From assembly GCA_024137785.1 (NCBI GenBank), contig JAHRHZ010000140.1, positions 19,267,707 to 19,331,706 on the forward strand: a stretch of DNA of 64,000 nucleotides, given 5' to 3'. This document shows, piece after piece, positions 1 to 54,519 of the stretch (its first letter is position 1; every line of letters starts with the position of its first letter). The notes under the pieces were generated by a model. That model ran no database searches. It was given only the letters and a program-made list of their open reading frames with translations, and was not told where the DNA came from. Source of the DNA: Ginglymostoma cirratum (lineage: Eukaryota). Made by a program: the position numbers and the translations under genes.

Positions 1-245
1 CGTCAGGGATCTGGGTTCGATTCCACCCTCGGGCAACTGTCTGCATGGGTTTCCTCCAGGTGCTCCGGTTTCCTTCCACAATCCAAAGACATGCAGGCTA
101 GGTGGATCGGCCATGCTAAATTGCCCCTAGTGTTCAGGAATGTGTAGCTTAGGTGGCTTATGGGGGGTCAGGGTGGGATGCTCCTAGGGTTGGTGTTGAC
201 TTGTTGGGCTGAAGAGCCTGTTTCCACACTGTAGGGATTCTATGA
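1..245 (+). mobile_element. HE1-like tRNA-derived SINE (V-SINE), cut at its 5' end by the window edge
   Basis: Box-B-like gggttcgattcc, V-domain ggtttcctccaggtgctccggtttccttccaca, CR1-type tail ...gtagggattctatga; homologous to the copies at 9941, 26464 and 28672. Confidence 0.8.
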
Positions 246-1530: not shown

Positions 1531-3743
1531 AGAGCACTTCTCAATTTGTCTTCTCTTTGATTATCATCAATTCCATCTGCCTTTGTATTCCTAACGCATT
1601 TAGTTTTCTCTATGGAATTTGTTGGGTTGTTTTTATAAACTCCTCAGTTTAACCTTTCATCCAGGTTGATAAATTTGCAAATGGCAATTAAAGTACACAA
1701 TGATAGCCAACTGGTTTCATAGTTCAAGACTACTGGCAACAGAAACTAACCTATTATTAGGGTCCTCACTTTGTGCCATTTCCAAGAACGTCATCTGAAG
1801 GCTGGAAGCTTAGTTCCATTTTGGCAAGACTCATGACAGGAAAGTATAAATCATTCAGCAATCAACCCATTATAATGCTTTATTACAAAAAGTCAAACAA
1901 AGTTATGCACTTTTAACCTGCCCTTTTTTAAAAAGAAATTCTCGGACAATATGGTATTCTTTTTCTGTACAGGCCTATTTCACTTTAATTTGTCGCCTTC
2001 TAAAACAATTCCCAAAGCAAAAAGCAACAGTTAGAATGTACTCATTGAAGATGCAATCTTTTCCACTGAGCAAGTAAATTAACTCAAATCATCTCCATTC
2101 CCAAATACAATTACGTCTAACGATGATGGAACCAGTACTAAAAAAAAACCAAAAATATTTTGATTTAAATTTAATAATTTAAATATTAAATGTTATTTTA
2201 AAGGCCTCATCCCCTGCCAAGTTTCTCACCAAGTCAGCCTCTTTCAATCATTTCATACTAGACTGAAAATTCAGCAACCATGAGGTCACAAATTAAAACA
2301 CACATTTTGATTCTCTAAAATAATAGGCAGATAGCTGCACAATAAATGTTTGCCACATTTTTATGAAAACGAATTGAACAAAAAAGTATATGGACTCTAC
2401 ATTTTTCTAATTCTTACGTGCTCGAACTCTCAAGGTTATGTGTAAGTTTAGAACTGTCACAATCAAAATTGTTTTAAGTTTCAGGGAAATACAGAAATCT
2501 GAATGAATAGAAATCTACAATGTGCCATTTCTTTGTCACATCACTGTGTCGACATATGACATTTCAACAATATACTCTGTCATTAAGGTATTTATTACAA
2601 ATGATCTATCTTTTGATACAGAGGTTTTAAATATTGATCTTTTCACAAAGAAGCTTCAAATGGAATATTTTTGAAAGGCACTCTCTTTACTGTCTTTCCA
2701 ACTGCAGAGTGAGAATGCTGCAATGGCTCATTTAGCAACTTGCCTGACTCGCATTTAAATTAAACGTTCTAACAAAGGCCATTCAGTTGTCAAATTTGGT
2801 TTTCTACTAGTTTCTTCAAAACTGGTTCTATGCTGTAATCAATAGCCTTTCTACATTTGTTTACCGATTTCTTATAGACAACACACTAAATTATTTATGA
2901 CATGAGTATCAGCTCAATATTTGCCAAAATAAATTAGGAGTGATCATCACCTCAACCTTTGAACAAAAATTAATTCAAACAAAAGGAAAATCAGAATGAT
3001 AATGAAATACACAAGTAAAGTGGCAGACAGTGAACTGAATAGGTAAATAAGCATTCACTCCCTAAATCCCACACTTTTTTCTCCACCTAGTATCTGTTCT
3101 GTATTTTCCAATATTTTCCAGCAACTCTGCCCTCAGTCAATTGACAGAACTCAACGTAGGCAGTAGGCTCTCAACTGCAGCTGGAGAACTGGCCAGACGT
3201 TTGCATCAGCTCCTTTGGGAAAGAACATCAAACTGGCCAGCAGTAGAACGTCCTCAAAATCAAAGAGTCTGGGGTGGAAGTCCAACCCATCATGAGTAGT
3301 GACCAGTCAAAGGCAAACAGCTATTCACTGCTTGGTAGAACTGTTGGGTAAACCCAAGGTCACCAGTGAGTGGCAGTAGGAGGTGCCACTACAGGGTTGA
3401 AGTCACAGGGGATAGGGAGAGGGTCAACAGCAAAGGCAGGGCTCTCAGAAGTTCATTTATGATGCTCAGTCCCTTAATCACAAAATGAACATTGTCCTTA
3501 GTGATTGCCTTTCCAGCTTCATACATGGTCTCTCTCACCCACGGTGGGTCAAGAAAATCCCTAATTGAGCACTGATTGACCACTCAATTGACATTGGGTG
3601 GGATGGTTGTCCACGAGCCTGCATCCTTACTAACCTAATGGGGACAGAAGCAGGAAGGAAAAAGAGATCTAATTAAATTTCCCTGCCACCAAACACATTA
3701 AACTTACCCCATCCCAATTTTGACAGCAGCTTTACTTCAATAC

Positions 3744-6700
3744 TGTTATAATCTGTTTAATGTAAAGTCATCCACGTGGTCATAAATTTAGCTTTACTGA
3801 TTTAGTTGATTTTTCTGATGCCAGCTATAATTTACTAACCTAGAATGATTATGAATTTGTTGAATTGAGAGAGTTTTAGAGTCAGAGGCACCAAAAGGGA
3901 TTGAAAGGTATTAGCTTGCTTTTGATTTAGAAGAATCAAGAAGTGACTTTTTGTTTTTACTAGGAAAGGTCCAAAGTGTGGTTTCAATTCGCAGAATACC
4001 TGGAGGAGATTAAATCCGAGAACAATTTCTCTTGGACAAAGAAGTTAGTTCAGGACAAGTCAGAAAGAGGTTACTGTAGTGCAGGGTTTTAGTTTAAATT
4101 CCAGACCAAAATTTTTAGTTGGAACCACGAATGGGTTATTTGAAGTTAACAAAGTTTAAGCCGTGATGTTCAACATTCCATGGATAGCTGCTCTGACCGC
4201 ATCCAGAGGTCAACACTCAGTGCCATGCAGTGCCACATGCACACTCTCCAAAAGCATCACAACACACTGGCTCAGGGTTGCATCACTCCGCAGTTCCACT
4301 TCATCCTCCGGCTCATTCATCATTCTAGCAATAAACTTTTTCTTGTCTGTTCAGGCATCAAGGCCCACAAGATGCAACAACCCAAAGATACCCATGGCCC
4401 TCTGGAACCTTCCGGTCCTCCCCTTCCTTCTGACTCCATCCCCTCCCCCAACACCCACGCCCCCACCACCTCCTGTCAGGTATTCACCATCCCTCCTAAC
4501 CTTCCGCTCTCCAATGCTAAACGTTCTGTACTCAGCAAAGGCCTCAGCTTTAATCCTCTGCGTCCCCACCTTAACAAATTTCAGACACAACATGATGCTG
4601 AACTCTTCTTCTGCCATCTTCGCCTCCGTGCTCATTTCTTTGGACAAGAGTCCTCTCCCTGTCCACAGACCCTTTCGACCAGTTCCAACACTCTCCCTCC
4701 ACCTGGACCCCTCCCCCTCTGGCCTTTTATCTGCACTTGATCTGTTCATGGAGAACTGTCAGCATGATATTGGTCGCCTCAATTTCTCTGCACCTCTCAC
4801 CAAATCCAACCTACCTCCCTCCGAACTGACTGAACTCCATGCACTCAGATTTAACCCTGACTTTGTTATTAAGCTTGCCAATGAGGGTGGTGCTCTTGTA
4901 GTCTGGCGTACATACCTCTACCTTGCAGAGGCTGAGCGCCAACTCTCCAATACCTCCTCCTCCCCTGGACCATAACTCCACCATGACACATCAGGCCATT
5001 GTATCTACTACAGTAACTGATTTCATTTCATCCTGTGATCTCCCCCACCTCTGCTTCCAAGCTGATAGCCCCCCAGCCCTGCACAGCTCGCTTCTACTTC
5101 CTCCCAAAAATCCACAAACAGGACTGTCCGGGCAGACCCATTGTTTCAGCCTGCTCCCGTCCCACAGACTCATCTCTTCCTACCTTGACTCAGTAATCTC
5201 TCCCCAGTCCAATCTTTGCCCACATACATCCACGATTCCTCCGACGCCTTACGCCAGGTTCAAAACTTCCAGTTTGTCAGTTCCAGCCAACTCCTCTTTA
5301 CCATGGACGTGCAATCCCTTTACATGTCTATTCCTCACCTGGAGGGTCTTGGGGCTCTCCGTTTCTTCCTGGAACAAAGACCTGAACCATCACAACGCAC
5401 CACCACCCTCCTCCACCTGGCCGAGCTTGTCCTCACCCTCAACAACTTCTCTTTTAACTTGTCTCATTTTCTTCAGGTGGCCATAGGTACCCACATGGGC
5501 TCCGGTTATGCCTATCTGTTTGTAAGGTACGTGGAACATTCCTTGTTCCAGTCCTATTCCAGCCCCCACCCACAACTCTTTCTCCAATACATCAATGATA
5601 TCATTAATGCTGCTTCCCTCTCTCAACCGTAATTGGAAAACTTCATCAATTTCCACTCCAATTTCCACGCTGCCATCACTGTCACCTGGTCTCTCTCTGA
5701 CTCCTCCCTTCCCTTCCTCGAAATTTCTGTTTTGATTTATGGGGATAAACTGGCCACTAATATCCACCACAAACCCACAGACTCCCACAGCTACCTGGAC
5801 TATACATCCTCACACCCTATTTTCTGTAAAGACTCCATCCCGTTCTCTCAGTTCCTCTGTCTCCGTCGTATATGTCCAAATGAAGCCAACTTCAACAAGG
5901 GAGCCTCCGAAATGTCCACCTTCTTCCTCAACCGAGGATTCCCTAGCTCAGTGTTTGACACGGCCCCCAACTGGATCTGATCCATCTCCCGCACGTCTGC
6001 CCGCACCCCTTCTCCTCCCTCCCTCAACAGCAATAGGGTTCCTCTTGTCCTTTCCCATCATCCCACCAGCATCCACATCAGACGCCATTTCCGCCACCTC
6101 CAGTAAGATGTCACCACCAGACACCTATTCCCTTCCCCTCCCCTCCCCTCCCTTGTCCGCCTTTTGCAGGGACTGTTCCCTCTGGGACACCCTGATCCAC
6201 ACTTCCTTTACCCCCAACACCTCCCCACAGCCCTACGGCACTTTCCCCTGTACCCAGTGAAGATGCAACACCTGCCCATTTACCTCTCCCCTCCCCAGTA
6301 TCCAAGGGCCCAAACATACCTTCCAGGTGAAGCAACGCTTCACATGCACTTCCCAGAATCTCGTCTATTGCATTCGCTGCTGACGAAATTGGTCTCCTCT
6401 ACATTGGGAAAATGAAGTGTAGACGAGGTGACCACTTGGCAGAACATCTACGTTCTACTCGCAAAAAGACCCTGAACTACCGTTGCCTGCCACTTTAACG
6501 CACCACCCTGTTTCCTGAACAACATCTGTCTCTGGGTTGCTGCAGTGTTCTAGCAAAGCTCAAGGCAAGCTAGGAGAACCTCAATTTCCGCTTGGGGACC
6601 CTGCAGCCTTCCGGACTCAATATGGAGTTCAATAATTTTAGGGCCTAAACTCTCCCATGTCCCACCCCCCACCCACACACCAAGCCTTGTTACCACGTAG

Positions 6701-7386
6701 CCTGCCATTACAAACTACCTGTTATTAGTCACTAATAGTCCCCATGAAAACTATTCATCCTCCCAACCTGATCGTTATCAACTCTGTCTGTCTCAATGTT
6801 CTTCTCTCTCTTTTGGCTCTATCCTATCGTTTACTCCCTTCCCCATCCCCCTCCCCTTTTTTCTGCATATACAATGACGTTTTCCCAGCCACTATCAGTT
6901 CTGAGGAAGGGTCAGTGGACCCAAAACGTTAACTCTGTTTTTTTCCTTCTCACATGCTGATAGACCTGCTGAACTTTTCTAGCATCTTTGTTTTTGTTCC
7001 AAAGTTTAAGCTCAGTTGTGTGAATGATCAAGGAAGAGACTATTCACATCTCAAGATCAGAAACTGAAAAAGAAACAGTTATCTTAAACTTTTGGATGTG
7101 ATAAAGAAGGGAATTTGCTGATATTTGAACAGTGTAAAGTAATGGTATTGGGAACAGTTGGGATTTTATTTCAAATTGTGTTATACACTATGTAAATTGA
7201 TGAGTTTATCCTATTTATCTTCATTTCTTGTTTACTAAACTCCTGTTTTATTGTTGAAAGCAAATCTGCAGCATTGCGTGCTATTGTTTCAGTGAAAGAC
7301 CACTATGTTAAATTGAAATAAAATGATCTATCAAATCAGATATCAGTCTGGGACTGACTTGTCCAGTAGTACCATCAACTGGGACA
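3744..7386 (+). mobile_element. Putative solo LTR-like repeat interrupted by the PLE at 4162-6999
   Basis: Joined flanks (4130-4161 plus 7012-7385) align by eye with 12990-13366, which ends ...atcataaca; tgttata at 3744 is a plausible TG start. Boundaries approximate. Confidence 0.45.
4162..6999 (+). mobile_element. Penelope-like retroelement, near full length and frameshifted (RT plus GIY-YIG endonuclease)
   Basis: ORF pieces: VIKLANEGGALVVW (KPADKGGA-like), LFTMDVQSLYMSIPH, YIND (YIDD-like), HKPTDSHSYLDYTSSHP..CKDSIPFSQFLCLRRIC, and GIY-YIG region FTCTSQNLVYCIRC...LYIG. 12-bp TSD caaagtttaagc at 4150-4161 and 7000-7011. Confidence 0.9.
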
Positions 7387-8818
7387 AGTGGGATGTAGGG
7401 CCTTCTAATTGCTCAGTAGGGCAAGGGTCTAGAACATTCCAACAAGTCCAAAAAGCAGCAAGGTTTGGGTAGGGGTTAAGAACAGTGAAAACCAGAAACC
7501 TAACTCAAGAATGCCCAATTATTCATGAAAGTATATCACAGTTCTGGACCTAATTGTCTTAATGCGAAAGGCAGCTACAATTACCCTATTGCCATGGGGC
7601 TCCTCCCTGAAAGTCTAAGTAGTCAAAGCCATAAAAATGTCAACTGTACGAGAAGTCCTACAGTTAAAGGCATGAGTAGAACAATAGCTTTATACGAAAC
7701 ATTGTTTGGGCCATGGTTAGAGTACAGACTTCAGATTTAAGTCTTTTTTTTGTTGAAAGAGCTTCAAACACAAAGAAAGTGTATAGCTCTACATTCAACA
7801 GGATGATGCCAGCAACAAAAATGGAAAGTTGAGACATGTCGTGAGAGATTAGGCCAATCCTGACTTTTATATGCTCTACAGTCGTAAGGTATTTTGAAAT
7901 GCAATATTCTATATTCACACAAGTAGTTTATGGCTTTTATTAACATTCAGTAAAAGCATAGCCACCGTTAGAATATTATACAAGTAGGCATGAGACACTA
8001 CAGTAATCCGCTTCAATTTCATTCAGAGTTAATAACATGCTAAATAGCATATAATAAAACTATTAGTGTCAAAATTAAATTCTGCTCAATGATTTCTTTG
8101 AAAACAATTTGTAAGATGGCATTCAAATATCTCTTTCTGGTATCTAAATGAAGCATGGTGAACAATATTAAGTCGACATAAAATAATTATTTTGTCACCT
8201 GTGGAAATGTGGATAAATACATAACTGCAGTTCGTTCTACTGTAAACTGTTGTACTACTTGATCGACGTGGATCTAAAAGGTTGATATTTTCTACTTCTT
8301 GGTGATTCAGTAAATAAGCATCAGATTCTCTTTTCAGTCTTTAATTCCAAAAAGACTTGAAAAATGATAAAAGAGTTTCAATTTTTAAACATGAGAAGCT
8401 AGTATAACACCTACGTTTTGGACTTTTGGAGAGATTGATTGAAAAAAAAATCACGTATCATACCATTCCCTTGTTAATTTTACCCTCTCCTTTCCTATGC
8501 ATATTGGCTCTTTACTGCAAAACAGTTACACAGGCACCAGCACCATCGAGCAAATTATTTGGTGACTAATTTTTTAATGCATGACTACTGCTATTTAACA
8601 TTCACATCTAGATTTCATCCAGTACTCTTACAACAGCCACATACATTTGCTTCGAGCACAGGTTATTGGGAAACACCTTAAAGTGGCTATCTTCGTCATT
8701 ATTTATCCTCGTTGCGTGTATTTAGGTCAATTGCAGTATCCCATCATGAGATCCTTATTGGATAAAGTTGCTATTCAACCAAGAGATGCCTTGTAAAACA
8801 AAATAATCAAGTACTTAC

Positions 8819-9007
8819 AAAGACAGTTCACAGTTTGCCACTCCATGCACTGTCCATATGGAAAAGAAATTACATATGTATTTGAATCCACACAACGCTT
8901 AGCACTGCTGCACCACATACATTCCACATTCTGGCTTGTGCAGTTCGAACAAGTTGTTCGGAGGGAGCAAGGTGTCTTGCAGGGTCTGGCTTTTTGATTT
9001 GGACTGA
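8819..9007 (-). CDS. ATRNL1: ATRNL1 exon, 189 nt (PSI)
   Basis: tttacag|TC AGT CCA AAT...TGT CTT T|gtaagt; SPNQKARPCKTPCSLRTTCSNCTSQNVECMWCSSAKRCVDSNTYVISFPYGQCMEWQTVNCL. Confidence 0.95.
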
Positions 9008-9643
9008 CTGTAAAAGAAGAACATGTCTCTTACTCAGAATTAAACTAAGCAATAAAATTACAGCACTTTTCAGTCAGAATATCAATTGTTTACAATTTGT
9101 TCCCAATGTGTGGCTATCACGCAGAAAAATTGGAACAAGAGGAATCCATTTGGCCCTTCAAGGCCATTCCACAATTCATTATGATCAAGTTTGATCATCC
9201 AACTCAGTAACCTGCTCGCACTTTCACCCTTTCCCCAGCAATGGCGTTAGCCCCATGAAATGCATCTATTAAATTTTTTTGGCTTCAACTGCTTTCTGTG
9301 GCAAAGAATTCCATAAACTCACTACTCATTGGGTGAAGAAATTTCTCCTCATTTAAGTTCTAAATGGGCAACTTTCTATTCTTAGACTGTGTCCCCTGGT
9401 TCAGGAACATCCTTCCTGCGCTTATCCTGTCTAGCCCCGTTTGAATTTTACAGGACTCCAGAAGACTCTTCTCCCCTCATTCTTCTAAACTGCAATGTAT
9501 ATAGGTTCTAACCAACCCAGTCTCTCATCATACATCAGTCTTGCCATCACAGGAATCAACCTGGTAGACATTCAATGCACTCCCTCCATAGCCAGAACAT
9601 TTTTCCTCAGATAAGGAGACCAAAACTGTACACAACACTCCAG

Positions 9644-9868
9644 GAACAAAAACAAAGTTGCTGGAAAAGCTCAGCAGGCCTGGCAGCTTCTGTAAAGGAA
9701 AAAAACAGTGTTAGCGTTTTGGGTCCGGTGAATTCTGAGGAAGGGTCACCGGATCCGAAACGTTAACTCTGTTTTTTTCCTTCACAGATGTTGCCAGACC
9801 TGTTGAGCTTTTCCAGCAACTTGGTTTTAGTTCCTGATTTACAGCATCCACAGTTCTTTTGGTTTTTA
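9644..9868 (+). mobile_element. Non-autonomous inverted-repeat element made of PLE termini
   Basis: About 87-nt inverted arm, direct arm and about 30-nt tail; TSD acaacactccag/acaatactccag (9632-9643, 9869-9880); same family as the 3' end of 4162-6999. Confidence 0.85.
9730..9769 (+). ncRNA. Minimal type-I hammerhead ribozyme motif (GUU site)
   Basis: gaauu CUGAGGA A GGGUC-ACCG-GAUCC GAAA CG UU aacuc; core intact, stem I has one mismatch, stem III reduced to the ACGU palindrome. Confidence 0.65.
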
Positions 9869-10287: not shown

Positions 10288-10385
10288 GAGATAAAACGTT
10301 GTGGAGCTGGATGAACACAGCAGGCCAAGCAGCATCAGAGGAGCAGGAAAGTTGACGTTTCGGGTACAGAACCTTCTTCAGAAAA
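10288..10385 (-). mobile_element. PLE terminal fragment with hammerhead-like core (10354-10382)
   Basis: Minus strand: ttCTGAAGAaggttctgtacccGAAACGTCaactttcctgctcctctgatgctgcttggcctgctgtgttcatccagctc. Confidence 0.75.
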
Positions 10386-11265: not shown

Positions 11266-12931
11266 GAGATAACAAGGTGTAGAGCTGGATGAACACAGCA
11301 GGCCAGGCAGCATCAGAAGAGCAGGAAAGCTGACATTTCAGGTCTGGATCCTTCTTCAGAAATGGGGCAGGGGAAGGGGTCTCTGAAATAAATAGAGAGG
11401 GGGAGGCGATGATGGAAGGTGGATAAAGGAGCTGATAGGTGGAGAAAAGATGGGCAGATCAAGGGGGCGGGGTGGAGCCAGTAAAGGTGAGTGTAGGTAG
11501 GGAGTTGGGATGGGGGTTGGTCAGTTGGGAAGGAGGGAAGATGGACAGGTCAAGGAGGCAGGGATGAGGCTCGTAGGTAGGAAGTGGGGGTGGAGGTTGG
11601 TCAATGGATAGTTGGGAGAAAAGACGGACAGGTCAAGGAGGCAGGGACGAGCTGGGCTGGTCTTGGGATGAGGTAGGGGGTGGGGAGATTTTGAAGCTTG
11701 TGAAGTCAACATCGAGACCATTAGGCTGTAGGGTTCCCAAGCGAATTGAGGTGCTGTTCCTGCAGTCTTTGGCATCGTTGTGATACTGGAGGAGACCTAT
11801 GATGGACATGTCGTCTAAGGAGTGGGAGGGGGAGTTGAAGTGGTTTGCGACTGGGAGGTGCAGTCGTTTGTCACGAACCAAGCGTAGGTGCTCCACAAAG
11901 CGGTCTCCAAGCCTTCGCTTGGTTTCCCTGATGTAGAGGAGATCACATCGGGAACAGCAGATACAATATACCACGTTAACACATGTGCAGGTCAACATCT
12001 GTTTAAGGTGGAAGGTTTTCTTAGGGCCTGGGATGGGGATGAGGCGGGGAGGGGGGTGTAGGGGCAGGTGTAGCACTTCCTGTGGTTGCAGGGAAAAGTG
12101 CCAGGGGTGGTGGGGCTGGAGGGCAGTGTGGAGCAGACAAGGGAGTCACAGAGAGAGCAGTCCCTCCGGAAGGCAGATAAGGGTGGGGAGGGAAAAATGT
12201 CCTTGGTGGTGGGGTCAGATTGCAGGTGGCAGAAGTGGCGGAGGATGATGCGTTGAATCCCGAGGTTGGTGGGGTGATATGCGAGGATGAGGGGGATTCT
12301 GGTCATTGTTGTTATTGTGGGAAGGAGATGTGAAGGATGAGTTGCGGGAAACACAAGAGATTTGGTCAAGGGCATGGAACACCTACGCTCGGTTCATGAC
12401 AAACGACTGCACCTCCCAGTCGCAAACCACTTCAACTCCCCCTCCCACTCCTTGGATGACATGTCCATCCTAGGCCTTCTCCAGTGTCACAACGACACCA
12501 ATCGAAGGCTGCAGGAACAGCACCTCATATTTGACTTGGGAACTCTACAGCCCCATGGTCTCAATGTGGGGTTCACAAGCTTCAAAATCTCCCCACCCCG
12601 ACCTCAACCCAAGACTAGCCCAGCTCATCCGCACCTCCTTGACCTGTCCGTCTTTTCTCCCACACAACTAACTAACCCCCCATCCCAACTCCCTACCTGC
12701 ACTCACCTTTACTGGCTCCATCCCCACCCTCTTGACCTGCCCGTCTTTTCTCCACCTAACAGCTCCGTTATTCACCTTCCATCGTCGCCTCCCCCTCTCT
12801 CTATTTTTTTCAGAGTCCCCTTCCCTTCCCCCATTTCTGAAGAAGGGTCCAGATCTGAAACGTCAGCTTTCCTGCTCCTCTGATGCTGCCTGGCCTGCTG
12901 CGTTCAATCCAGCTCGACACCTTGTTCTCTC
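11266..12931. mobile_element. Inverted pair of PLE 3' portions (minus arm 11266-12372, plus arm 12375-12931)
   Basis: GIY-YIG remnants on both strands (LTCTCVNVVYCICCSRCDLLYIRETKRRLGDRFVEH; EHLRSVHDKRLHLPVANHFNS). Outer termini are reverse complements; hammerhead-like core CTGAAGAagggtccagatctGAAACGTC at 12837-12864. Confidence 0.88.
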
Positions 12932-16582: not shown

Positions 16583-17051
16583 CAGTAAATACATGACTTC
16601 AGGCACATTACAATTCAAAGACGTGTTTCATAAGAGCACCTTGTGAAGAAACCTCAAGACAGGTTGCGAGAGTCAAGTTGTCACATTTTAGAAATGTAAG
16701 AATATAAAAAGTAACCATGGAACATTGAAAACTAACCCTGACACAAATTTAGTATAGTCATCTCAAATGATAGACAATTTTACATCATGAAAGTATATAT
16801 CACAGAACAAGGTGTGAACAAAGTATGTGAACAAGAGCAAAACATTGGCGACCAAACAGAATGCAAGGTGGTGGTGAGGAAGGGGGTTAGAAGGATAGAC
16901 TAGAAGATCCAGGCTTGAAGGAGACTTTTGAGAGAGGAACCAAGTCACAAAAACTGACAGATGCTTGTACAATGCCCCGTAGTATGTACTGAAAAAAAGT
17001 TTGCCTCTGAAGCTGAAAGCAGAATGAATAAAAACAAGACTCAAAAGGCAG

Positions 17052-17616
17052 AGATAAAAGGTACTGCAGATGCTGGAGAATCCGAGATAACAAGCATGGG
17101 GCTGGATGAANNNNNNNNNNNNNNNNNNNNNNNNNNNNNNNNNNNNNNNNNNNNNNNNNNNNNNNNNNNNNNNNNNNNNNNNNNNNNNNNNNNNNNNNNN
17201 NNNNNNNNNNNNNNNNNNNNNNNNNNNNNNNNNNNNNNNNNNNNNNNNNNNNNNNNNNNNNNNNNNNNNNNNNNNNNNNNNNNNNNNNNNNNNNNNNNNN
17301 NNNNNNNNNNNNNNNNNNNNNNNNNNNNNNNNNNNNNNNNNNNNNNNNNNNNNNNNNNNNNNNNNNNNNNNNNNNNNNNNNNNNNNNNNNNNNNNNNNNN
17401 NNNNNNNNNNNNNNNNNNNNNNNNNNNNNNNNNNNNNNNNNNNNNNNNNNNNNNNNNNNNNNNNNNNNNNNNNNNNNNNNNNNNNNNNNNNNNNNNNNNN
17501 NNNNNNNNNNCCTAAACCCTTCATCAGATGAAGGGTTTAGGCCCGAAACGTCAAGTTTTCCTGCTCCTATGTGCTGCTTGACCTGCTGTATTCATCCAGC
17601 CCCATGCTTGTTATCT
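17052..17616 (-). mobile_element. PLE-derived hairpin element spanning a 400-N gap
   Basis: Perfect 16-bp TSD aagactcaaaaggcag (17036-17051, 17617-17632); nearly identical to 51750-51952. Confidence 0.85.
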
Positions 17617-47082: not shown

Positions 47083-47677
47083 AGATAGTAGGAACTGCAG
47101 ATGCTGGAGAATCTAAGTTAACAAGGTTAACAAGGTTATCTAAGTTAACTAAGTAAAAACCAAGTACACGAGAAACTCAGATAACAAGGTGTAGAGGTGG
47201 ATGAACACAGCAGGCCAAGCAGCATCAGAGGAGCAGGAAGTCTGNNNNNNNNNNNNNNNNNNNNNNNNNNNNNNNNNNNNNNNNNNNNNNNNNNNNNNNN
47301 NNNNNNNNNNNNNNNNNNNNNNNNNNNNNNNNNNNNNNNNNNNNNNNNNNNNNNNNNNNNNNNNNNNNNNNNNNNNNNNNNNNNNNNNNNNNNNNNNNNN
47401 NNNNNNNNNNNNNNNNNNNNNNNNNNNNNNNNNNNNNNNNNNNNNNNNNNNNNNNNNNNNNNNNNNNNNNNNNNNNNNNNNNNNNNNNNNNNNNNNNNNN
47501 NNNNNNNNNNNNNNNNNNNNNNNNNNNNNNNNNNNNNNNNNNNNNNNNNNNNNNNNNNNNNNNNNNNNNNNNNNNNNNNNNNNNNNNNNNNNNNNNNNNN
47601 NNNNNNNNNNNNNNNNNNNNNNNNNNNNNNNNNNNNNNNNNNNNCTGCTGTGTTCATCCACCTCTACACCTTGTTAT
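47083..47677 (-). mobile_element. PLE-derived hairpin element spanning a 400-N gap, inserted in an older PLE remnant
   Basis: Tail agatagtaggaactgcagatgctggagaatct plus mirrored arms; probable TSD ctgagtttctc(c/g)tgt at 47063 and 47678. Confidence 0.7.
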
Positions 47678-47721
47678 CTGAGTTTCTCGTGTACTTGGTT
47701 TTTACTTTAGGTATGGTAAAA

Positions 47722-49129: not shown

Positions 49130-49360
49130 AGCTTTAGAATTGCATCTAGTCTTGAAATCCCCCATTCCCCAACAACTATCATGAACTCCATCTATACCCC
49201 TCATTATTTTATAAACTTCCATAAGGTCACCACTCAACCTTCTACACTCCAGTGAAAAAAGTCCCAGTCTATTCAGCCTTTGTTTATAACTCAAACCTTC
49301 CATCCCAAGCAACATCCTAGTAAATCTCTTCTGAACCCTTTCTAGCTTAATAATATTCAA
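49130..49360 (-). mobile_element. CR1 fragment
   Basis: IKLERVQKRFTRMLLGMEGLSYKQRLNRLGLFSLECRRLSGDLMEVYKIMRG. Confidence 0.85.
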
Positions 49361-49716: not shown

Positions 49717-49925
49717 TGGTTTTGAGGGGACATTTCACCTCATGGAAGCTACTATTACTTTGGCCTAGTTCCCACGGAACACAATGATGCTTGTGCCACA
49801 AACACCTAATACCTGGACCAGCATTCAAACAAAGATCTTCACTGAAGGCTTCACAGCTTGAAGGTTTGTACACGAGGACATCATTCAAAAGCATACTGGA
49901 GAAACCGCCAAACACATACATAGAT
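49717..49925 (-). CDS. ATRNL1: ATRNL1 exon, 209 nt (kelch end and PSI)
   Basis: ccag|A TCT ATG TAT...AAA ACC A|gtaagt; SMYVFGGFSSMLLNDVLVYKPSSC...CPLKT (ORF 49706..49951). Confidence 0.95.
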
Positions 49926-50482
49926 CTGGAAGAAGAGGAGAAAAGCATCATTCACAAGTACATAAAAACTTATTTCGCAATGTCTATAGCAGGTACTAAA
50001 ACAGGATAGCACTAGCATACAAATTAATGAGACACAGGTGATTACTACATTTCCCAACACGGGTTATCAGTTCAAGGACGAGGTACAAACTAAGTTCAGC
50101 AACATCGCTCACGAGGAATGAAGTGTGTTGAATTTGTCTGGTTCAGCACTGGCAGCACCAAGAGCATGCAAGTACATTCTCCAATACCCTCTCAGCCAAA
50201 GAACAAGCACTGTTTTCAAATTAAGGGCAGAAAATGCATTTTTTAAAAGGTCAGGCAAACATAACATGAAAAAAATAGTATGTAAAAGCTGGTCTAAAGA
50301 CTTCTGTTCCTAAATTAATGCACTTTTCCATCATTCACATTGCTAATTGGAGAAAAGAATGCCAAATTTTAGTCAATCAGCAACAAATGCCAGGAAAGAT
50401 AATAGTGCAATAAAGAAAAGTTTCTTTGACCACTGAGATAAATGGAATGAGAAAATAGACACAGAGGAAATAATGGACTCAC

Positions 50483-50567
50483 CCATTGCTTACAACTGCT
50501 GAGTGTCCAAATCTATTGAGGTCACGATGCAAATTGGGTTTTGGAAGTATTGTCCATTCATCACAGG
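50483..50567 (-). CDS. ATRNL1: ATRNL1 exon, 85 nt (kelch repeat)
   Basis: cag|CC TGT GAT GAA TGG...AGC AAT GG|gtgagt; encodes CDEWTILPKPNLHRDLNRFGHSAVVSNG; too short for the ORF track. Confidence 0.93.
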
Positions 50568-51749
50568 CTGGACAAAAGAACAGTGTTAATTATATTCATA
50601 AGCTGTAGAAAATGCAACTAATTACTCTTGAAGTTATTAAAAAGTCAATTTTTCTTTTCACACTGGAAACCAAATTGAAACAAAGAACTGGACAGTTTAA
50701 CTGTTAATTTTTCAAGTAGGAATGCAAGTAACACAAAATGAGAGAACACATAAAGCCACCTGTAAAATGACAGAAACCTGCTAAAATGGAACTTTTGTAT
50801 TTAGGTGAGTGAAGCATCCTGAAATGAATAATAGCTTTAAAACAGAATTAGACAGACACATAATATCATGTAATACAATATAAACAGTGTAAAATCTGTC
50901 TCAAAGGTTTTGTTTCCTTTCTTTGGGTTGTACAATGTGGAACAGTACAGAGATGCAGAAACCTTTTTCTCCTTCAAAGTATGGTTTATAATAAAGTTGC
51001 TTCAAAATATATTGCAAGCAACATAGAAAAAAATACATAACTAATATTGTTTCTCCTTTGATTTTTTATATCACATGTATTCAAGCAAAAAGTAGAGGAG
51101 TACAGTGAAAAGTGTATACTGTCACCAAACAAAGTGTCATTGTAAGTACAAGTACCTAGGTACAGAATCTTTAGAACAAGATAGAAAGAAAGAACAAAGT
51201 TAAAAGTTAAACATTACAACAATTATAGCATTGTGTAAACCCTACAAAATATGGTTAAAAGTTACAGTTCTTCTTAGTTTTAAGTAGAGAATAAAGAAAT
51301 AAAGCTGACAGTTCAAACATTACAGTCTTTCTTTAGTGCTTAGCCATGGTGGGATCGCACTTCGAGGAACCACCTTGAGACCATTAGTCCACAGTGAGGC
51401 CACACCAGGCTGAATGACTGCCACACTAGATGCGGTACCGATTCATATTTTGGAAGACCAAAACAATTTCTTCAGAATAACCAACAGAGATTTGCACTAA
51501 ATAATTCATGGCTTGAATTTCAGGATTATGAAGTATGCACTTAGTTGAGAAAGTAGTCTTTAGTTTGTCTTCAATTATAATTAAATGGCCTTTCTGATCT
51601 GCCATGTATGCATCACGTATAGGCAGGATGGTTAAAAAGGTGGTTGGCACACTTGCCCTCATTACTCAGTCCTTTGAGTGCAGGAGTTCGAAAGTCATGT
51701 TGAGATTGCACAGGACATTGGTGAGGCTTCTTCTGGAATATTGTATCAG

Positions 51750-51952
51750 AGATAAAAAGTACTGCAGATGCTGGAGAATCCGAGATAACAAGCATGGGGC
51801 TAGATGAACACAGCAGGTCAAGCAGCATCATAGGAGCAGGAAACCTTGACGTTTCGGGCCTAAACCCTTCATCAGAAGGGTCTAGGCCCAAAACGTCAAG
51901 TTTTCCTGCTCGACCTGCTGTGTTCATCCAGCCCCATGCTTGTTATCTCGTA
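51750..51952 (-). mobile_element. Complete about 200-bp PLE-derived hairpin element
   Basis: Tail plus arm 51781-51872 mirrored by 51875-51950; TSD ttctggaatattgt at 51731 and 51953. Confidence 0.88.
51844..51879 (-). ncRNA. Minimal type-I hammerhead ribozyme motif (GUC site), sense to the ATRNL1 pre-mRNA
   Basis: Minus strand: ccuu CUGAUGA A GGGU-UUAG-GCCC GAAA CG UC aagg; 4-bp stem I, 4-bp stem II, all core nucleotides present. Confidence 0.7.
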
Positions 51953-54519
51953 TTCTGGAATATTGTGTCCAGTTCTGGTCACCCAATTTTAGGAAAGGAC
52001 ATTAAGCTGGAGAGGGTTCTGAAGGGATTTACCAGGATGTTGCCAGGTATGAGTTTGAGTTATAGGTTTGAGTTATAAAGGAAGGCTGGAGACTTCTTTT
52101 CTTGAGTGTAGGAGATTGACAGGCGATGTTATAAAAGTTTATAAAATAATGAGGGGTAGAGATAGAGTTAATAGTAGTTGCCTTTTCCCCTGGATGGGGG
52201 ATTTAAAGACTAGGGGCACTTAAAGACTAGGGGCACATTTTCAAGGCGAGAGGAGAGAGATTTAACATGACAATTTATTTTTAAAACAGAGAGGGTGGTT
52301 CATGTGTGGAATGAACTTACTGAGGATGTGGATACAATTGCAACATTTAAAAGACATTTGGATAAGTACGTGAATAGGAAAGGCTTGGAGGGATATGGGC
52401 CAGGAGCAGGCAGGTGAGAGTGTTTAGTTTGGGATCATGTTCAGCATGGACTGGTTGAACCAAAGGGTCTGTTTCCGTGCTCAATGACTCTCCACGCAGT
52501 ATGCACTTTCTACATGACAGGTAACTGCAATGACTCACTAGGACTTCTTCATCAAACGAGAATTCCAACCTAACAATATTATAGGAATATTAAGGATGGC
52601 CTGATAAGGTAGTCAGAAAGCACATGAGACAATGTAGGACTACGGAACATAACCTACAAAATGAAGAATGGTCTTTCAGGAACAAAGTCGAGAAAAGCCT
52701 CTTACATGGAAAGAGTAATCAAACAGTGGAACCTTTTACTCAACAGTTGCTATTGCATCAATTATTTATTTTAAATATAACATTTGTTGATATCAATCTA
52801 AAATTTACTGACTGAGTTATCCAAAATGAAGTAAGTGAAATTGATTGAGGAGAAAACATATGAAGCCTGGTGATGACTTCATGATTTGAAAAGTCCCTGG
52901 TTTTAATGTGTTGCGCTTTGCTAAAAGAATGTGTATTTGTTTACATCAAGCATTGTAACTCAGCTGAAATGGATTGGACTGTCAAAATAACTCTGAAAAA
53001 GCTGAAGTCTTGTTTAAAAACAGACACAGTTAATTAGAGATAATAACGTGGATTATTCATCAGCTGAATCTGTGATCACAAGACAACTGCACTGTGTAAA
53101 TATCATACAATTTGATTAGATGTAAAAGCAAACACAAGCTAAAGCTAAGTTCAACGTTTATTAAAAGCAATAAGCTTCTTTGCAAAGAGACACAAGTAAG
53201 TCCTTATGATTTAATTGATTAAAGTGGTCATGATAGTTGAAGTGCTTGTGATGTTTACCAATGGTCAAACTAATCATTTGCTGGAGGTGCAGCTTCTTTG
53301 AATGGAAAGAGTATTTTTAAAAAAAATCTTGCCCTACTGCACAAATAGTTGGCTCTGGGAGTGGAGGTCATATGATCAGCAGCTAGAAATTGGGACAGAT
53401 TAGGTTGATCACCTGTTCTCATCAAATCTTCAGACAAGTCCAGATAAAAGCATTCACTTGTGATTGTAAGCACAGTATGGGCAAGATTTTTGGAGTTTTC
53501 TTTTGTACTTGAGCATATTCTGTTGTTAGAACGGCCTTGACATCCAAAGTAAACCTGACAGACGAGGAAAAGTGGGAATAAATGTCTTATTAGTAGATTA
53601 ACAGATTTCTGTTAGCCAAATTTCAAGATATGGGGCAAAAGCAGATATATAGAGTCAGAATGCATATCAGCCAGGCTCTGTTTGAATGACAGAATAGGAC
53701 TGAGTGGCTAATTATCCTACTTCCATGCTCCTTTCAATACCTTCATGACATGGTTTGCAGTATTCAAGAAAGATGTTCTTAAACAAATTGGTAATGGCAC
53801 AGAATGGCTTGCTGTACAGACAGCTGGTATGTAATCAGTGGGTTAAATGGTGTCCTGTGTTGTAATGGCTTGAGTGTATTGCTATGATTGCTTCTTGGAT
53901 ATCAGTCAAATTTTAACTGATACATGCAAGACTGCCGCATGAAATAATTCTGAAACATTTTCTAAGCGTCGTGTAGACTAACAGTTACGTACAGTGCCTC
54001 TGGAAATCATTTCTCCAAGGTCTTCAATATTATTGAGCCCCCAACTTCATAAAACCTGCTTCTACTTTCATTCCAACATTCACAAACGGCACTGCCCCAG
54101 TAGACCCATTATTTCAATTTGCTCTTTGCCTCAGAGATCTACCTTTTAAAACTTTACATTCATGAATCTTCTGTTGATCTTGTACTTTAATAAGTTCCTG
54201 GCTCTTAAAACTGCCCTGCATCCTCCTTGAACGGATATCCAACCAAGCAATATCTATAATGACTCTTCAATGCCTGGTTGAACTTGTTCATTCATTAACG
54301 CAACTTTTCCTTTTCCTGAAACAGAAGATGTTGCTATGGGAGCCTTTACAAGTCCAGCTGCAGATACCTTTTTACCAGGATATGGTGAATATTCTGGGTT
54401 CCAGTCCAAATTCCTCCCTCACCTCTTTTTGCCATTTCCTACTTTCAAGCCCAAACTAGAAAATCTCATCAACCTGCTTTCCAATTTCCACCCTTACCAT
54501 GCTTTACAGAATGAGGCTG

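What the first reader, a model, noticed from the sequence alone, without database searches (positions are those of the whole stretch)
51844..51879. Intact minimal hammerhead ribozyme on the ATRNL1 sense strand, carried by a PLE-derived hairpin element
Seen: the minus strand reads ccuu-CUGAUGA-A-GGGU(UUAG)GCCC-GAAA-CG-UC-aagg. All catalytic core bases are present, there is an extra A after A9, and stem III is loopless, reduced to the ACGU palindrome. Established: PLE terminal repeats carry minimal type-I hammerheads that are thought to cleave as dimers through the palindromic stem III, and some intronic amniote hammerheads are proposed to derive from PLEs. Inference: this copy is transcribed in the ATRNL1 pre-mRNA about 1.3 kb upstream of an exon, with a predicted cut between 51848 and 51847. 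Its stem I 5' strand (ccuu) comes from the opposite arm of the palindrome, so the inversion appears to complete the fold.
Basis: partly seen in the sequence, partly recalled or inferred. Interest (0 to 1): 0.75.

Follow-up and report, generated by a model that had tools for sequence, protein, structure and literature searches.

The report
Hairpin-locked hammerhead from a shark retrotransposon
This ribozyme-shaped sequence in an intron of ATRNL1 is one of about 30,000 identical ends of a Penelope-type jumping gene in this genome, and here it is predicted to be locked inside a long hairpin and so likely does not cut; the copy is ordinary, but the copies as a group suggest that the jumping gene's RNA likely begins at the ribozyme's first base.

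Summary
The motif is there as described (minus strand 51844-51879, in an ATRNL1 intron, 1,277 nt before an exon), but it is transposon debris. Its 31-nt core occurs 30,099 times in the genome and belongs to the pseudo-LTR of a young Neptune-like Penelope element (RT + GIY-YIG). The parent already has stem I (AUUU/AAGU). The inversion replaced part of that strand rather than completing the fold, and the CCUU/AAGG stem rests on a base change found in 1 of 296 copies with this junction. The complementary arm is transcribed first, so the core is predicted to be buried in an ~85-bp hairpin (hammerhead fold costs 34-44 kcal/mol). Minimal hammerheads in PLEs and inverted, tailed insertions are published. 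Family-level lead: 36 of 70 clean 5' junctions fall within -6..+9 of C3, and only 1 at the cut site. Two families have a TATA-like box 29-31 nt before an initiator-like A that is the first base of stem I, and 48 of 56 hairpins pair one long and one short arm. This suggests a capped RNA starting at the ribozyme and copied by run-off reverse transcription. No earlier scan note on this sequence was found.

The parts
51844..51879 (-). Minimal type-I hammerhead motif (C3=51875, C17=51848; stem II GGGU/GCCC; ACGU palindrome instead of stem III; 4-bp stem I CCUU/AAGG, of which CC comes from the other arm and the last G is a private change)
51741..51877 (-). Long arm: PLE pseudo-LTR 3' part from position -2 to about +134 (C3=0), with the ~35-40-nt tail; lacks the parent's TATA-like box and initiator-like A; 3 private substitutions against natural copy L044
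51875..51950 (+). Short inverted arm: element +5 to +95; lacks CUGAU, has G12 changed to A and a 14-nt deletion, so it holds no intact core
51871..51874 (.). 4-nt loop of the ~85-bp hairpin (UGAU on the minus strand, i.e. U4-U7 of the catalytic core)
51731..51744 (+). Target-site duplication, left copy (14 bp)
   Evidence: the two flanks are contiguous with a ~14-bp overlap in other copies of the host repeat (L051, L054, L126, L189)
51953..51966 (+). Target-site duplication, right copy (14 bp)
51613..52200 (+). Old, decayed interspersed repeat into which the element inserted (translation resembles CR1 LINE ORF2; the label is recalled, Pfam gave no hit)
50483..50567 (-). Next ATRNL1 exon downstream (Kelch/beta-propeller region); no upstream exon found before the window end, so the intron exceeds 13 kb
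17050..17616 (.). Second long+short head-to-head insertion of the same young family in another ATRNL1 intron, centre lost in a 400-N gap

Best explanation
This is a 5'-truncated, head-to-head inverted insertion of the pseudo-LTR end of a young Penelope-like retrotransposon, and the hammerhead it carries is predicted to be base-paired into an ~85-bp hairpin in the ATRNL1 pre-mRNA, so it likely does not cleave and is likely neutral. Shown: the parent (RT + GIY-YIG ORF, partial tandem), the copy number, the 14-bp target duplication, the long + short arm anatomy and the private origin of the outer stem I pair. Predicted by folding: sequestration. Inferred mechanism of origin: the element's RNA likely starts at the first base of hammerhead stem I (TATA-like box at -31, initiator-like A). 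The element's enzyme nicks the target and starts reverse transcription inside the RNA about 94 or 130 nt downstream, as shown in vitro for the lizard element PAc. It then runs off the RNA's 5' end, and the cDNA end joins an inverted second copy through the 3-nt TTC/GAA microhomology, by fold-back or by priming from the second target strand. The hammerhead is a passenger whose function, if any, is in the parent's RNA.
For: 30,099 exact cores, control 0; 109,281 with a free 12-nt stem II, control 36. Parent ORF with RVT_1 and GIY-YIG in 3 of 3 long copies scanned; CNRRKCYTC linker; partial tandem L212 in which the tail runs on into 5' UTR and ORF. Native stem I strand in 16,144 copies; window-type junction 296 times but with AAGG once. 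Hammerhead fold costs 39.5 kcal/mol in context and 34-44 during elongation, against 6-11 in native context. 35 of 90 unselected matches have an inverted arm within 600 nt. 3' ends cluster at +88..99 (39 of 90) and +124..128 or beyond (47 of 90); 48 of 56 head-to-head pairings are long + short. 36 of 70 clean 5' junctions lie at -6..+9, at least 9-fold the upstream per-base rate; 33 of 45 copies of a second family lose the parent sequence at the same place. Published: monomeric min-HHR inactive, dimers weak (PMC4209133); inverted truncated copy and one-sided tail typical of PLEs (PMC8557442, PMC3846280); two internal RT starts, both strands extended, hammerhead dispensable for insertion (PMC11167929).
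Against: Folding is computed, not measured; ADAR editing or proteins could open the hairpin, and PAc's hammerhead is protein-assisted (PMC11167929). No RNA data bear on the locus. The start-site inference rests on motif spacing (consensus recalled) and junction positions. The cap-like G before ATTT is enriched genome-wide (G 1,315, A 698, T 287) but weak in unselected subsets (C 10, A 8, G 7, T 2). It can often be explained by slip-back (8 of 30 end in CTG) or by the opposite arm (5 of 30 end in CAG), and only 1 of 8 loci with a clear duplication shows a lone extra G. The junction sample comes from the first 5.7 Mb of one contig, counts both arms of some insertions, and sets aside 20 of 90 next to assembly gaps. 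Fold-back and double priming were not separated.
Confidence: 0.88

Rival explanations
1. The hammerhead does cleave ATRNL1 pre-mRNA now and then (after the hairpin is opened by editing or by the element's protein, pairing in trans with another core through ACGU) and trims ATRNL1 output, as an early step of domestication like the intronic amniote hammerheads.
For: All core bases intact, sense orientation, and a 4-bp Watson-Crick stem I stronger than the parent's. Stems covary between families. PLE hammerheads can be protein-assisted (PMC11167929). Intronic amniote hammerheads are proposed to derive from retroelements (PMC6155905, passages).
Against: 34-44 kcal/mol penalty with the masking arm transcribed first. 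Even the bare 36-mer prefers an alternative long stem (constrained fold 3.6 kcal/mol higher). An intact core is expected in a ~2%-diverged copy. About 1-2 AAGG copies among 296 are expected from mutation alone (inference). Monomers were inactive and dimers weak in vitro (PMC4209133).
Confidence: 0.04
2. The relevant product is the hairpin, not the ribozyme: the ~85-bp intronic dsRNA, like thousands of sister hairpins, is likely edited by ADAR or diced into small RNAs that silence the element.
For: Near-perfect hairpin, -148.7 kcal/mol over 182 nt. 35 of 90 unselected matches are in inverted arrangements, out of 53,251 anchor matches. ADAR/Dicer handling of such hairpins is recalled knowledge.
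Against: No small-RNA or editing data were available. This is compatible with the best explanation and says nothing special about this copy.
Confidence: 0.25
3. The 5' junction pile-up is not a transcription start but a reverse-transcriptase stall or dissociation point at the base of stem I or at the start of the C-rich tract.
For: The parent sequence turns into a long pyrimidine tract right upstream of -4. About 40% of junctions in the hot zone (15 of 36) lie inside the core at +1..+9. The G-before-ATTT signal is ambiguous.
Against: The second family has the same boundary without a comparable C-run, and both families have a TATA-like box at -31/-29 and an initiator-like A exactly at -4. A stall would be expected on entering a structure (3' side), not after finishing it (inference).
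Confidence: 0.3
4. The hairpin is an assembly artefact.
For: Most young hairpins in this assembly end in 400-N gaps, and some show the same junction on both sides.
Against: This copy has no gap; its arms differ at 4 positions plus a 14-nt deletion; it has a clean 14-bp duplication; the left flank up to the duplication is matched at 100% by two contigs of an independent run.
Confidence: 0.02

Closest known systems
Minimal type-I hammerheads (min-HHR) of metazoan Penelope-like elements (Cervera & de la Pena 2014, PMC4209133)
   Same: Full core, extra base between 9 and 10.1, G10.1-C11.1, palindromic 15.2-16.2 without stem III, short stem I, location in the pseudo-LTR, thousands of single copies; opposite-strand pairs 100-700 bp apart were already noted there.
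   Different: Stem II is only 4 bp. Copy number (over 100,000 cores) exceeds the 4,000-9,000 given for coelacanth and Xenopus. No shark was found in the text parts read or in the 2 supplementary files searched (one file could not be searched). This copy is masked by its own inverted arm.
EN+ PLEs of the Neptune type; inverted pLTR + tail insertions (Craig et al. 2021 PMC8557442; Arkhipova et al. 2013 PMC3846280)
   Same: RT + C-terminal GIY-YIG, CX2-5CxxC linker, partial tandem, 5' truncation, inverted truncated copy with palindromic junction, 30-40-bp tail on one arm only, target duplication, assembly breaks at such sites; a putative TATA and Inr in a rotifer pLTR were noted.
   Different: Here most insertions hold no ORF sequence at all and begin at the hammerhead. 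Clade placement was not tested with a tree.
PAc, Poseidon PLE of Anolis carolinensis (Frangieh et al. 2024, PMC11167929)
   Same: Two internal RT start sites a tail-length apart, downstream of the hammerhead; inserted copies keep the hammerhead uncut; no ends at the cut site.
   Different: In PAc the ORF starts at stem II; here the long ORF appears to start about 165 nt after C3 (L212). The passages read do not map a transcription start or a 5' junction hot spot.
Non-LTR retrozymes of animals (Li, Clavereau & Pollet 2026 preprint 10.64898/2026.07.22.740005)
   Same: Non-coding, PLE-pLTR-derived, type-I hammerhead, frequent in introns, present in Chondrichthyes.
   Different: Retrozymes are direct tandem repeats with at least two cores; this is one core in an inverted pair.
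Conserved intronic hammerheads of amniotes (RECK etc.; as reviewed in PMC6155905)
   Same: Type-I hammerhead on the sense strand of an intron.
   Different: Those are conserved across birds/mammals or reptiles at one locus; this is a ~2%-diverged member of a 30,000-copy family inside an old repeat, predicted not to fold.

Membership tests
PLE minimal hammerhead (min-HHR) | Conserved core CUGANGA ... GAAA ... UH | tested here: met
PLE minimal hammerhead (min-HHR) | Extra base between 9 and 10.1, G10.1-C11.1 pair, palindromic 15.2-16.2 | tested here: met
   G-C at stem II pair 1 in 66 of 75 distinct family rows, CG at 15.2-16.2 in 61 of 75; features from PMC4209133
PLE minimal hammerhead (min-HHR) | Lies in the pseudo-LTR of a PLE | tested here: met
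PLE minimal hammerhead (min-HHR) | Covariation of stems across copies or families | tested here: met
   Between families: stem I pair 3 is U-G in 54 of 75 family-1 rows and G-C in 11 of 17 family-2 rows; family 3 (4 rows) uses other pairs in both stems; reversed control 0 of 4 paired. Within the young family only decay is seen. The core was fixed by the search pattern.
Active intronic ribozyme at this locus | Hammerhead fold accessible in the transcript | tested here: not met
   computed penalty 34-44 kcal/mol
Active intronic ribozyme at this locus | Self-cleavage as monomer or dimer | not testable with these tools
   needs an in vitro assay or end sequencing
Rfam hammerhead families | Covariance-model match | tested here: not met
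   none among the matches at E<=1 (window) or E<=10 (121 nt)
EN+ Penelope-like element (parent) | Single ORF with RT and C-terminal GIY-YIG | tested here: met
   3 of 3 long copies hit both families; 2 of 3 pass both curated cut-offs
EN+ Penelope-like element (parent) | Partial tandem pseudo-LTRs, inverted 5'-truncated copy, one-sided tail | tested here: met
   L212 tandem; inverted pLTR upstream in several of 20 long loci; 48 of 56 long+short
Neptune clade | CX2-5CxxC linker between RT and EN | tested here: met
   CNRRKCYTC in L006; shared with Nematis per PMC8557442
Neptune clade | RT phylogeny groups with Neptune | not tested
   no reference RT set was at hand; hence 'Neptune-like'
Non-LTR retrozyme | At least two consecutive direct repeat units each with a complete hammerhead | tested here: not met
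   one intact core; the second arm is inverted and broken
Domesticated intronic hammerhead | Locus-specific conservation across species | not testable with these tools
   no related genomes are held for G000; youth of the family (99% identical copies) argues against

The most novel reading that the evidence does not exclude
In at least two shark Penelope families the polymerase II start site is the first base of hammerhead stem I (TATA-like box at -31/-29, initiator A at +1), so the ribozyme is the capped 5' end of the element's mRNA. Reverse transcription started 94 or ~130 nt downstream runs off the cap and mass-produces tens of thousands of 100-135-nt solo copies and long+short hairpins, this locus among them. 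Self-cleavage would then release a ~32-nt capped piece, acting as a decapping/off switch rather than cutting out unit-length RNA, and cleaved RNA is almost never inserted.
Probability: 0.45. Interest if true: 0.55.

Novelty: new member of a known kind. Interest (0 to 1): 0.25.

Why it matters
For ATRNL1 it most likely does not matter: an intact core on a sense strand is expected about once per 80 kb in this genome. It is a caution for scans of cartilaginous-fish DNA, where such motifs will recur. The family is more useful than the copy. The role of PLE hammerheads is called unclear in PMC8557442, and how inverted, one-tailed insertions arise is also open. This genome holds tens of thousands of very young insertions whose 5' ends, 3' ends and arm pairing can be counted. 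They give a base-exact prediction (capped start at stem I base 1, no insertions from cleaved RNA) that one CAGE or 5'-RACE experiment can test.

Tried and rejected
Rfam search: no hammerhead family hit. Footprint of in vivo cleavage in genomic copies: 1 of 70 clean 5' junctions at +25..+30 (cut at +27/+28), and that one is an inverted junction; none seen, which does not show that cleavage never happens. A pile of 8 apparent junctions at -247/-252 is an alignment stop at an indel (flanks are element sequence) and was not counted as real; without them the hot-zone excess rises from about 9- to about 13-fold (by hand). Cap-G test: suggestive only. Two-RNA origin of the two arms, including the idea that the ACGU palindrome pairs two template RNAs: arms mostly share subfamily and even rare variants (22 shared minor alleles at common sites in 42 gap-free pairs), while 33 discordant common-site calls come largely from a few young/old neighbours and from loci chosen for likeness to the window arm. 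This is inconclusive and leans to one template or to conversion between arms. Sequencing runs: no RNA holder listed. Four runs laid were contigs swamped by the repeat; no piece spans the hairpin, and 22-nt-side joints that skip it cannot be assigned to this locus, so expression and polymorphism stay open. Lunse et al. 2016 on dimer cleavage is not held; only its title and a review's summary (PMC6765202) were seen. Literature searches for Penelope + TATA box + hammerhead gave 0 papers; for Penelope-like + hammerhead + truncated + capped + insertion junction, 3 listings, none on this by title. The library lacks most subscription papers and Repbase notes, so absence from print is not established. 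Earlier scan notes: nothing by sequence or in this genome; 358 notes on hammerhead + Penelope in other genomes, the 8 shown unrelated.

Full report
1. Observation. The host gene is ATRNL1. The exon at 49718-49933 hits shark attractin-like protein 1 at 86%, and tblastn with that protein finds 8 exons, all on the minus strand. The next exon starts at 50567, 1,277 nt after the motif. No Rfam hammerhead model matches. A loose core pattern is barely enriched in the window (12 against 7.5), so the motif's reality comes from its family, not from the window.

2. What carries it. The motif sits at the centre of an inverted repeat. Against a natural copy (C3 = 0), the long arm (minus, 51877-51741) is element -2 to about +134 with 3 private substitutions. 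The short arm (plus, 51875-51950) is +5 to +95 with G12 lost and a 14-nt deletion. The arms share a 3-nt microhomology. A 14-bp duplication (51731-51744, 51953-51966) flanks the unit, and the two flanks are contiguous in other copies of an old host repeat (its CR1 label is recalled, Pfam gave no hit). The exact 31-nt core occurs 30,099 times in the 4.36-Gb genome, reversed control 0; with stem II left free, 109,281 times, control 36; a downstream 41-mer 53,251 times. Longer copies lead upstream into an ORF with RVT_1 and GIY-YIG (3 of 3 scanned) and a CNRRKCYTC linker, which PMC8557442 gives as a Neptune/Nematis trait; no tree was built. L212 is a partial tandem in which the tail runs on into the 5' UTR and ORF start about 165 nt after C3. 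So the hammerhead lies in the parent's 5' UTR and again in its 3' pseudo-LTR.

3. The inversion does not complete the fold. In the parent the bases before C3 are AUUU, pairing with AAGU; 16,144 of the 30,099 copies keep this. The window's junction type occurs 296 times (gap-side duplicates inflate this somewhat), so it is a recurrent product. 0 of 30 such loci inspected have AAGG, 0 of 161 distinct sampled copies have G at that place, and the full 36-mer is unique in the genome. One or two such cases are expected from ~2% divergence (inference). Only CC of 'ccuu' comes from the other arm.

4. The fold is masked. The bare 36-mer prefers another long stem (hammerhead-constrained ensemble 3.6 kcal/mol higher). 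Six more bases each side raise the cost to 13 kcal/mol, and the full context to 39.5. Because the complementary arm lies 5' in the pre-mRNA, the core pairs as it emerges: cost 34-44 kcal/mol at the 4 lengths tested, against 6-11 for native-context copies. Only U4-U7 stay unpaired, as the loop. In vitro a monomeric min-HHR showed no cleavage and dimers were weak (PMC4209133; parts 1-2 of 4 read, 2 supplementary files searched, one not searchable). Family copies lie on both strands throughout the window, so sense orientation is unremarkable.

5. Among 105 distinct motif rows in 891 kb of held sequence, stems are paired well above the reversed control (0 of 4) and differ compensatorily between families: stem I pair 3 is U-G in 54 of 75 family-1 rows and G-C in 11 of 17 family-2 rows. 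The core was fixed by the pattern. This supports a selected hammerhead in the parent elements, not activity of this copy.

6. How such copies arise. I took the first 90 of 53,251 matches to a 41-mer downstream of the cut site (contig C1, first 5.7 Mb; both arms of some insertions counted). 20 border assembly gaps and were set aside. Of 70 clean 5' junctions, 36 lie at -6..+9 (21 at -6..-1, mode -4), 1 at +25..+30, and 8 at -247/-252 are alignment stops at an indel; the per-base rate in the hot zone is at least 9-fold that upstream. 3' ends fall at +88..99 (39 of 90) or +124 and beyond (47 of 90), and 35 of 90 have an inverted arm within 600 nt. Of 56 head-to-head pairings (sample enriched for hairpins, some from multi-arm clusters), 48 are long + short, 2 long + long, 1 short + short and 5 other, one of which is the window copy, long + short by eye. 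A second, older family loses its parent sequence at the same place in 33 of 45 copies (one probably misclassed). In both families a TATA-like box starts 31 or 29 nt before an initiator-like A that is position -4, the first base of stem I, and 11 of 12 native family-2 copies keep a TATA-like word (consensus motifs and spacing recalled). The base before ATTT in non-parent junctions is G 1,315, A 698, T 287 genome-wide, as copying of a cap would give (recalled). However, in 30 G loci 8 end in CTG (slip-back) and 5 in CAG (other arm), only 1 of 8 with a clear duplication shows a lone extra G, and unselected subsets show little excess. Arm-to-arm comparison leans to one template or conversion and does not separate fold-back from double priming.

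7. Known work. Inverted 5'-truncated copies, palindromic junctions, a 30-40-bp tail on one arm and assembly trouble are standard for PLEs (PMC8557442, PMC3846280; passages), and the latter notes a putative TATA and Inr in a rotifer pLTR and proposes self-priming. PAc starts reverse transcription at two internal sites, extends both target strands, and inserts uncut RNA; its hammerhead needs protein (PMC11167929; parts 1-2 of 4 and passages). In D. virilis the start site lies 46 nt before a 75-nt intron (PMC2377424, passages) whose end maps to helix I (PMC4209133). Retrozymes in vertebrates, including one chondrichthyan, are tandem (2026 preprint; part 1 of 5 and passages; supplements closed). 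Conserved amniote intronic hammerheads: PMC6155905, passages. Dimer cleavage: PMC6765202, passages; the primary paper was not held. I found no paper placing the start site at the first base of the hammerhead, within a library that lacks most subscription journals.

8. Verdict. It is a new member of a known kind, most likely inert at this locus (0.88). Interest is 0.25, nearly all from the family-level lead (probability 0.45, interest 0.55 if true). Public runs gave no usable evidence on expression or polymorphism.

Noticed in passing
window 17050-17616: Second head-to-head insertion of the same young family (long + short arm, ~16-bp target duplication, different junction), centre lost in a 400-N gap, also in an ATRNL1 intron.
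   Followed up: partly
window 49138-49351 and 52001-52221: Two old repeat fragments in inverted orientation (77-92% complementary over 25-98-nt pieces) bracket two ATRNL1 exons (49718-49933, 50483-50567), an arrangement that could favour exon skipping or back-splicing (inference).
   Followed up: no
window 9643-9838 and 47083-47688: Older PLE hairpins: a family-2 hairpin with its junction at the hammerhead, and an older family-1 pair around a 400-N gap.
   Followed up: partly
window 10354-10381, 11332-11359 (minus), 12837-12864, 6897-7001 (plus): Further decayed hammerhead cores of older subfamilies on both strands of ATRNL1 introns.
   Followed up: partly
L039:2688-2780, L006:1441-1500: TATA-like box at -29/-31 and initiator-like A at the first base of hammerhead stem I in two different PLE families.
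   Followed up: yes
L067:942-975, L068:389-491, L211:4025-4058: A third hammerhead-bearing repeat family with an 18-nt stem II region and different stem pairs; parent not identified.
   Followed up: no
L217, L218, L107, L048 at their 5' junctions: Short re-copied stretches of the first bases of the core (slip-back repeats) at junctions, reminiscent of telomerase-like template translocation (likeness recalled).
   Followed up: partly
G000-wide (e.g. L046/L047, L064/L065, L144/L145): Many 400-N gaps in this assembly sit at the centres of young PLE hairpins, so these elements are a major cause of assembly breaks and counts of junction types are approximate.
   Followed up: partly
L212 (minus) 2560-6627 in oriented coordinates: Near-full-length partial-tandem copy showing the 5' UTR, an ORF start about 165 nt after the hammerhead, and a low-complexity Pro/Thr/Ala/Asp repeat in the N-terminal ORF region.
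   Followed up: partly
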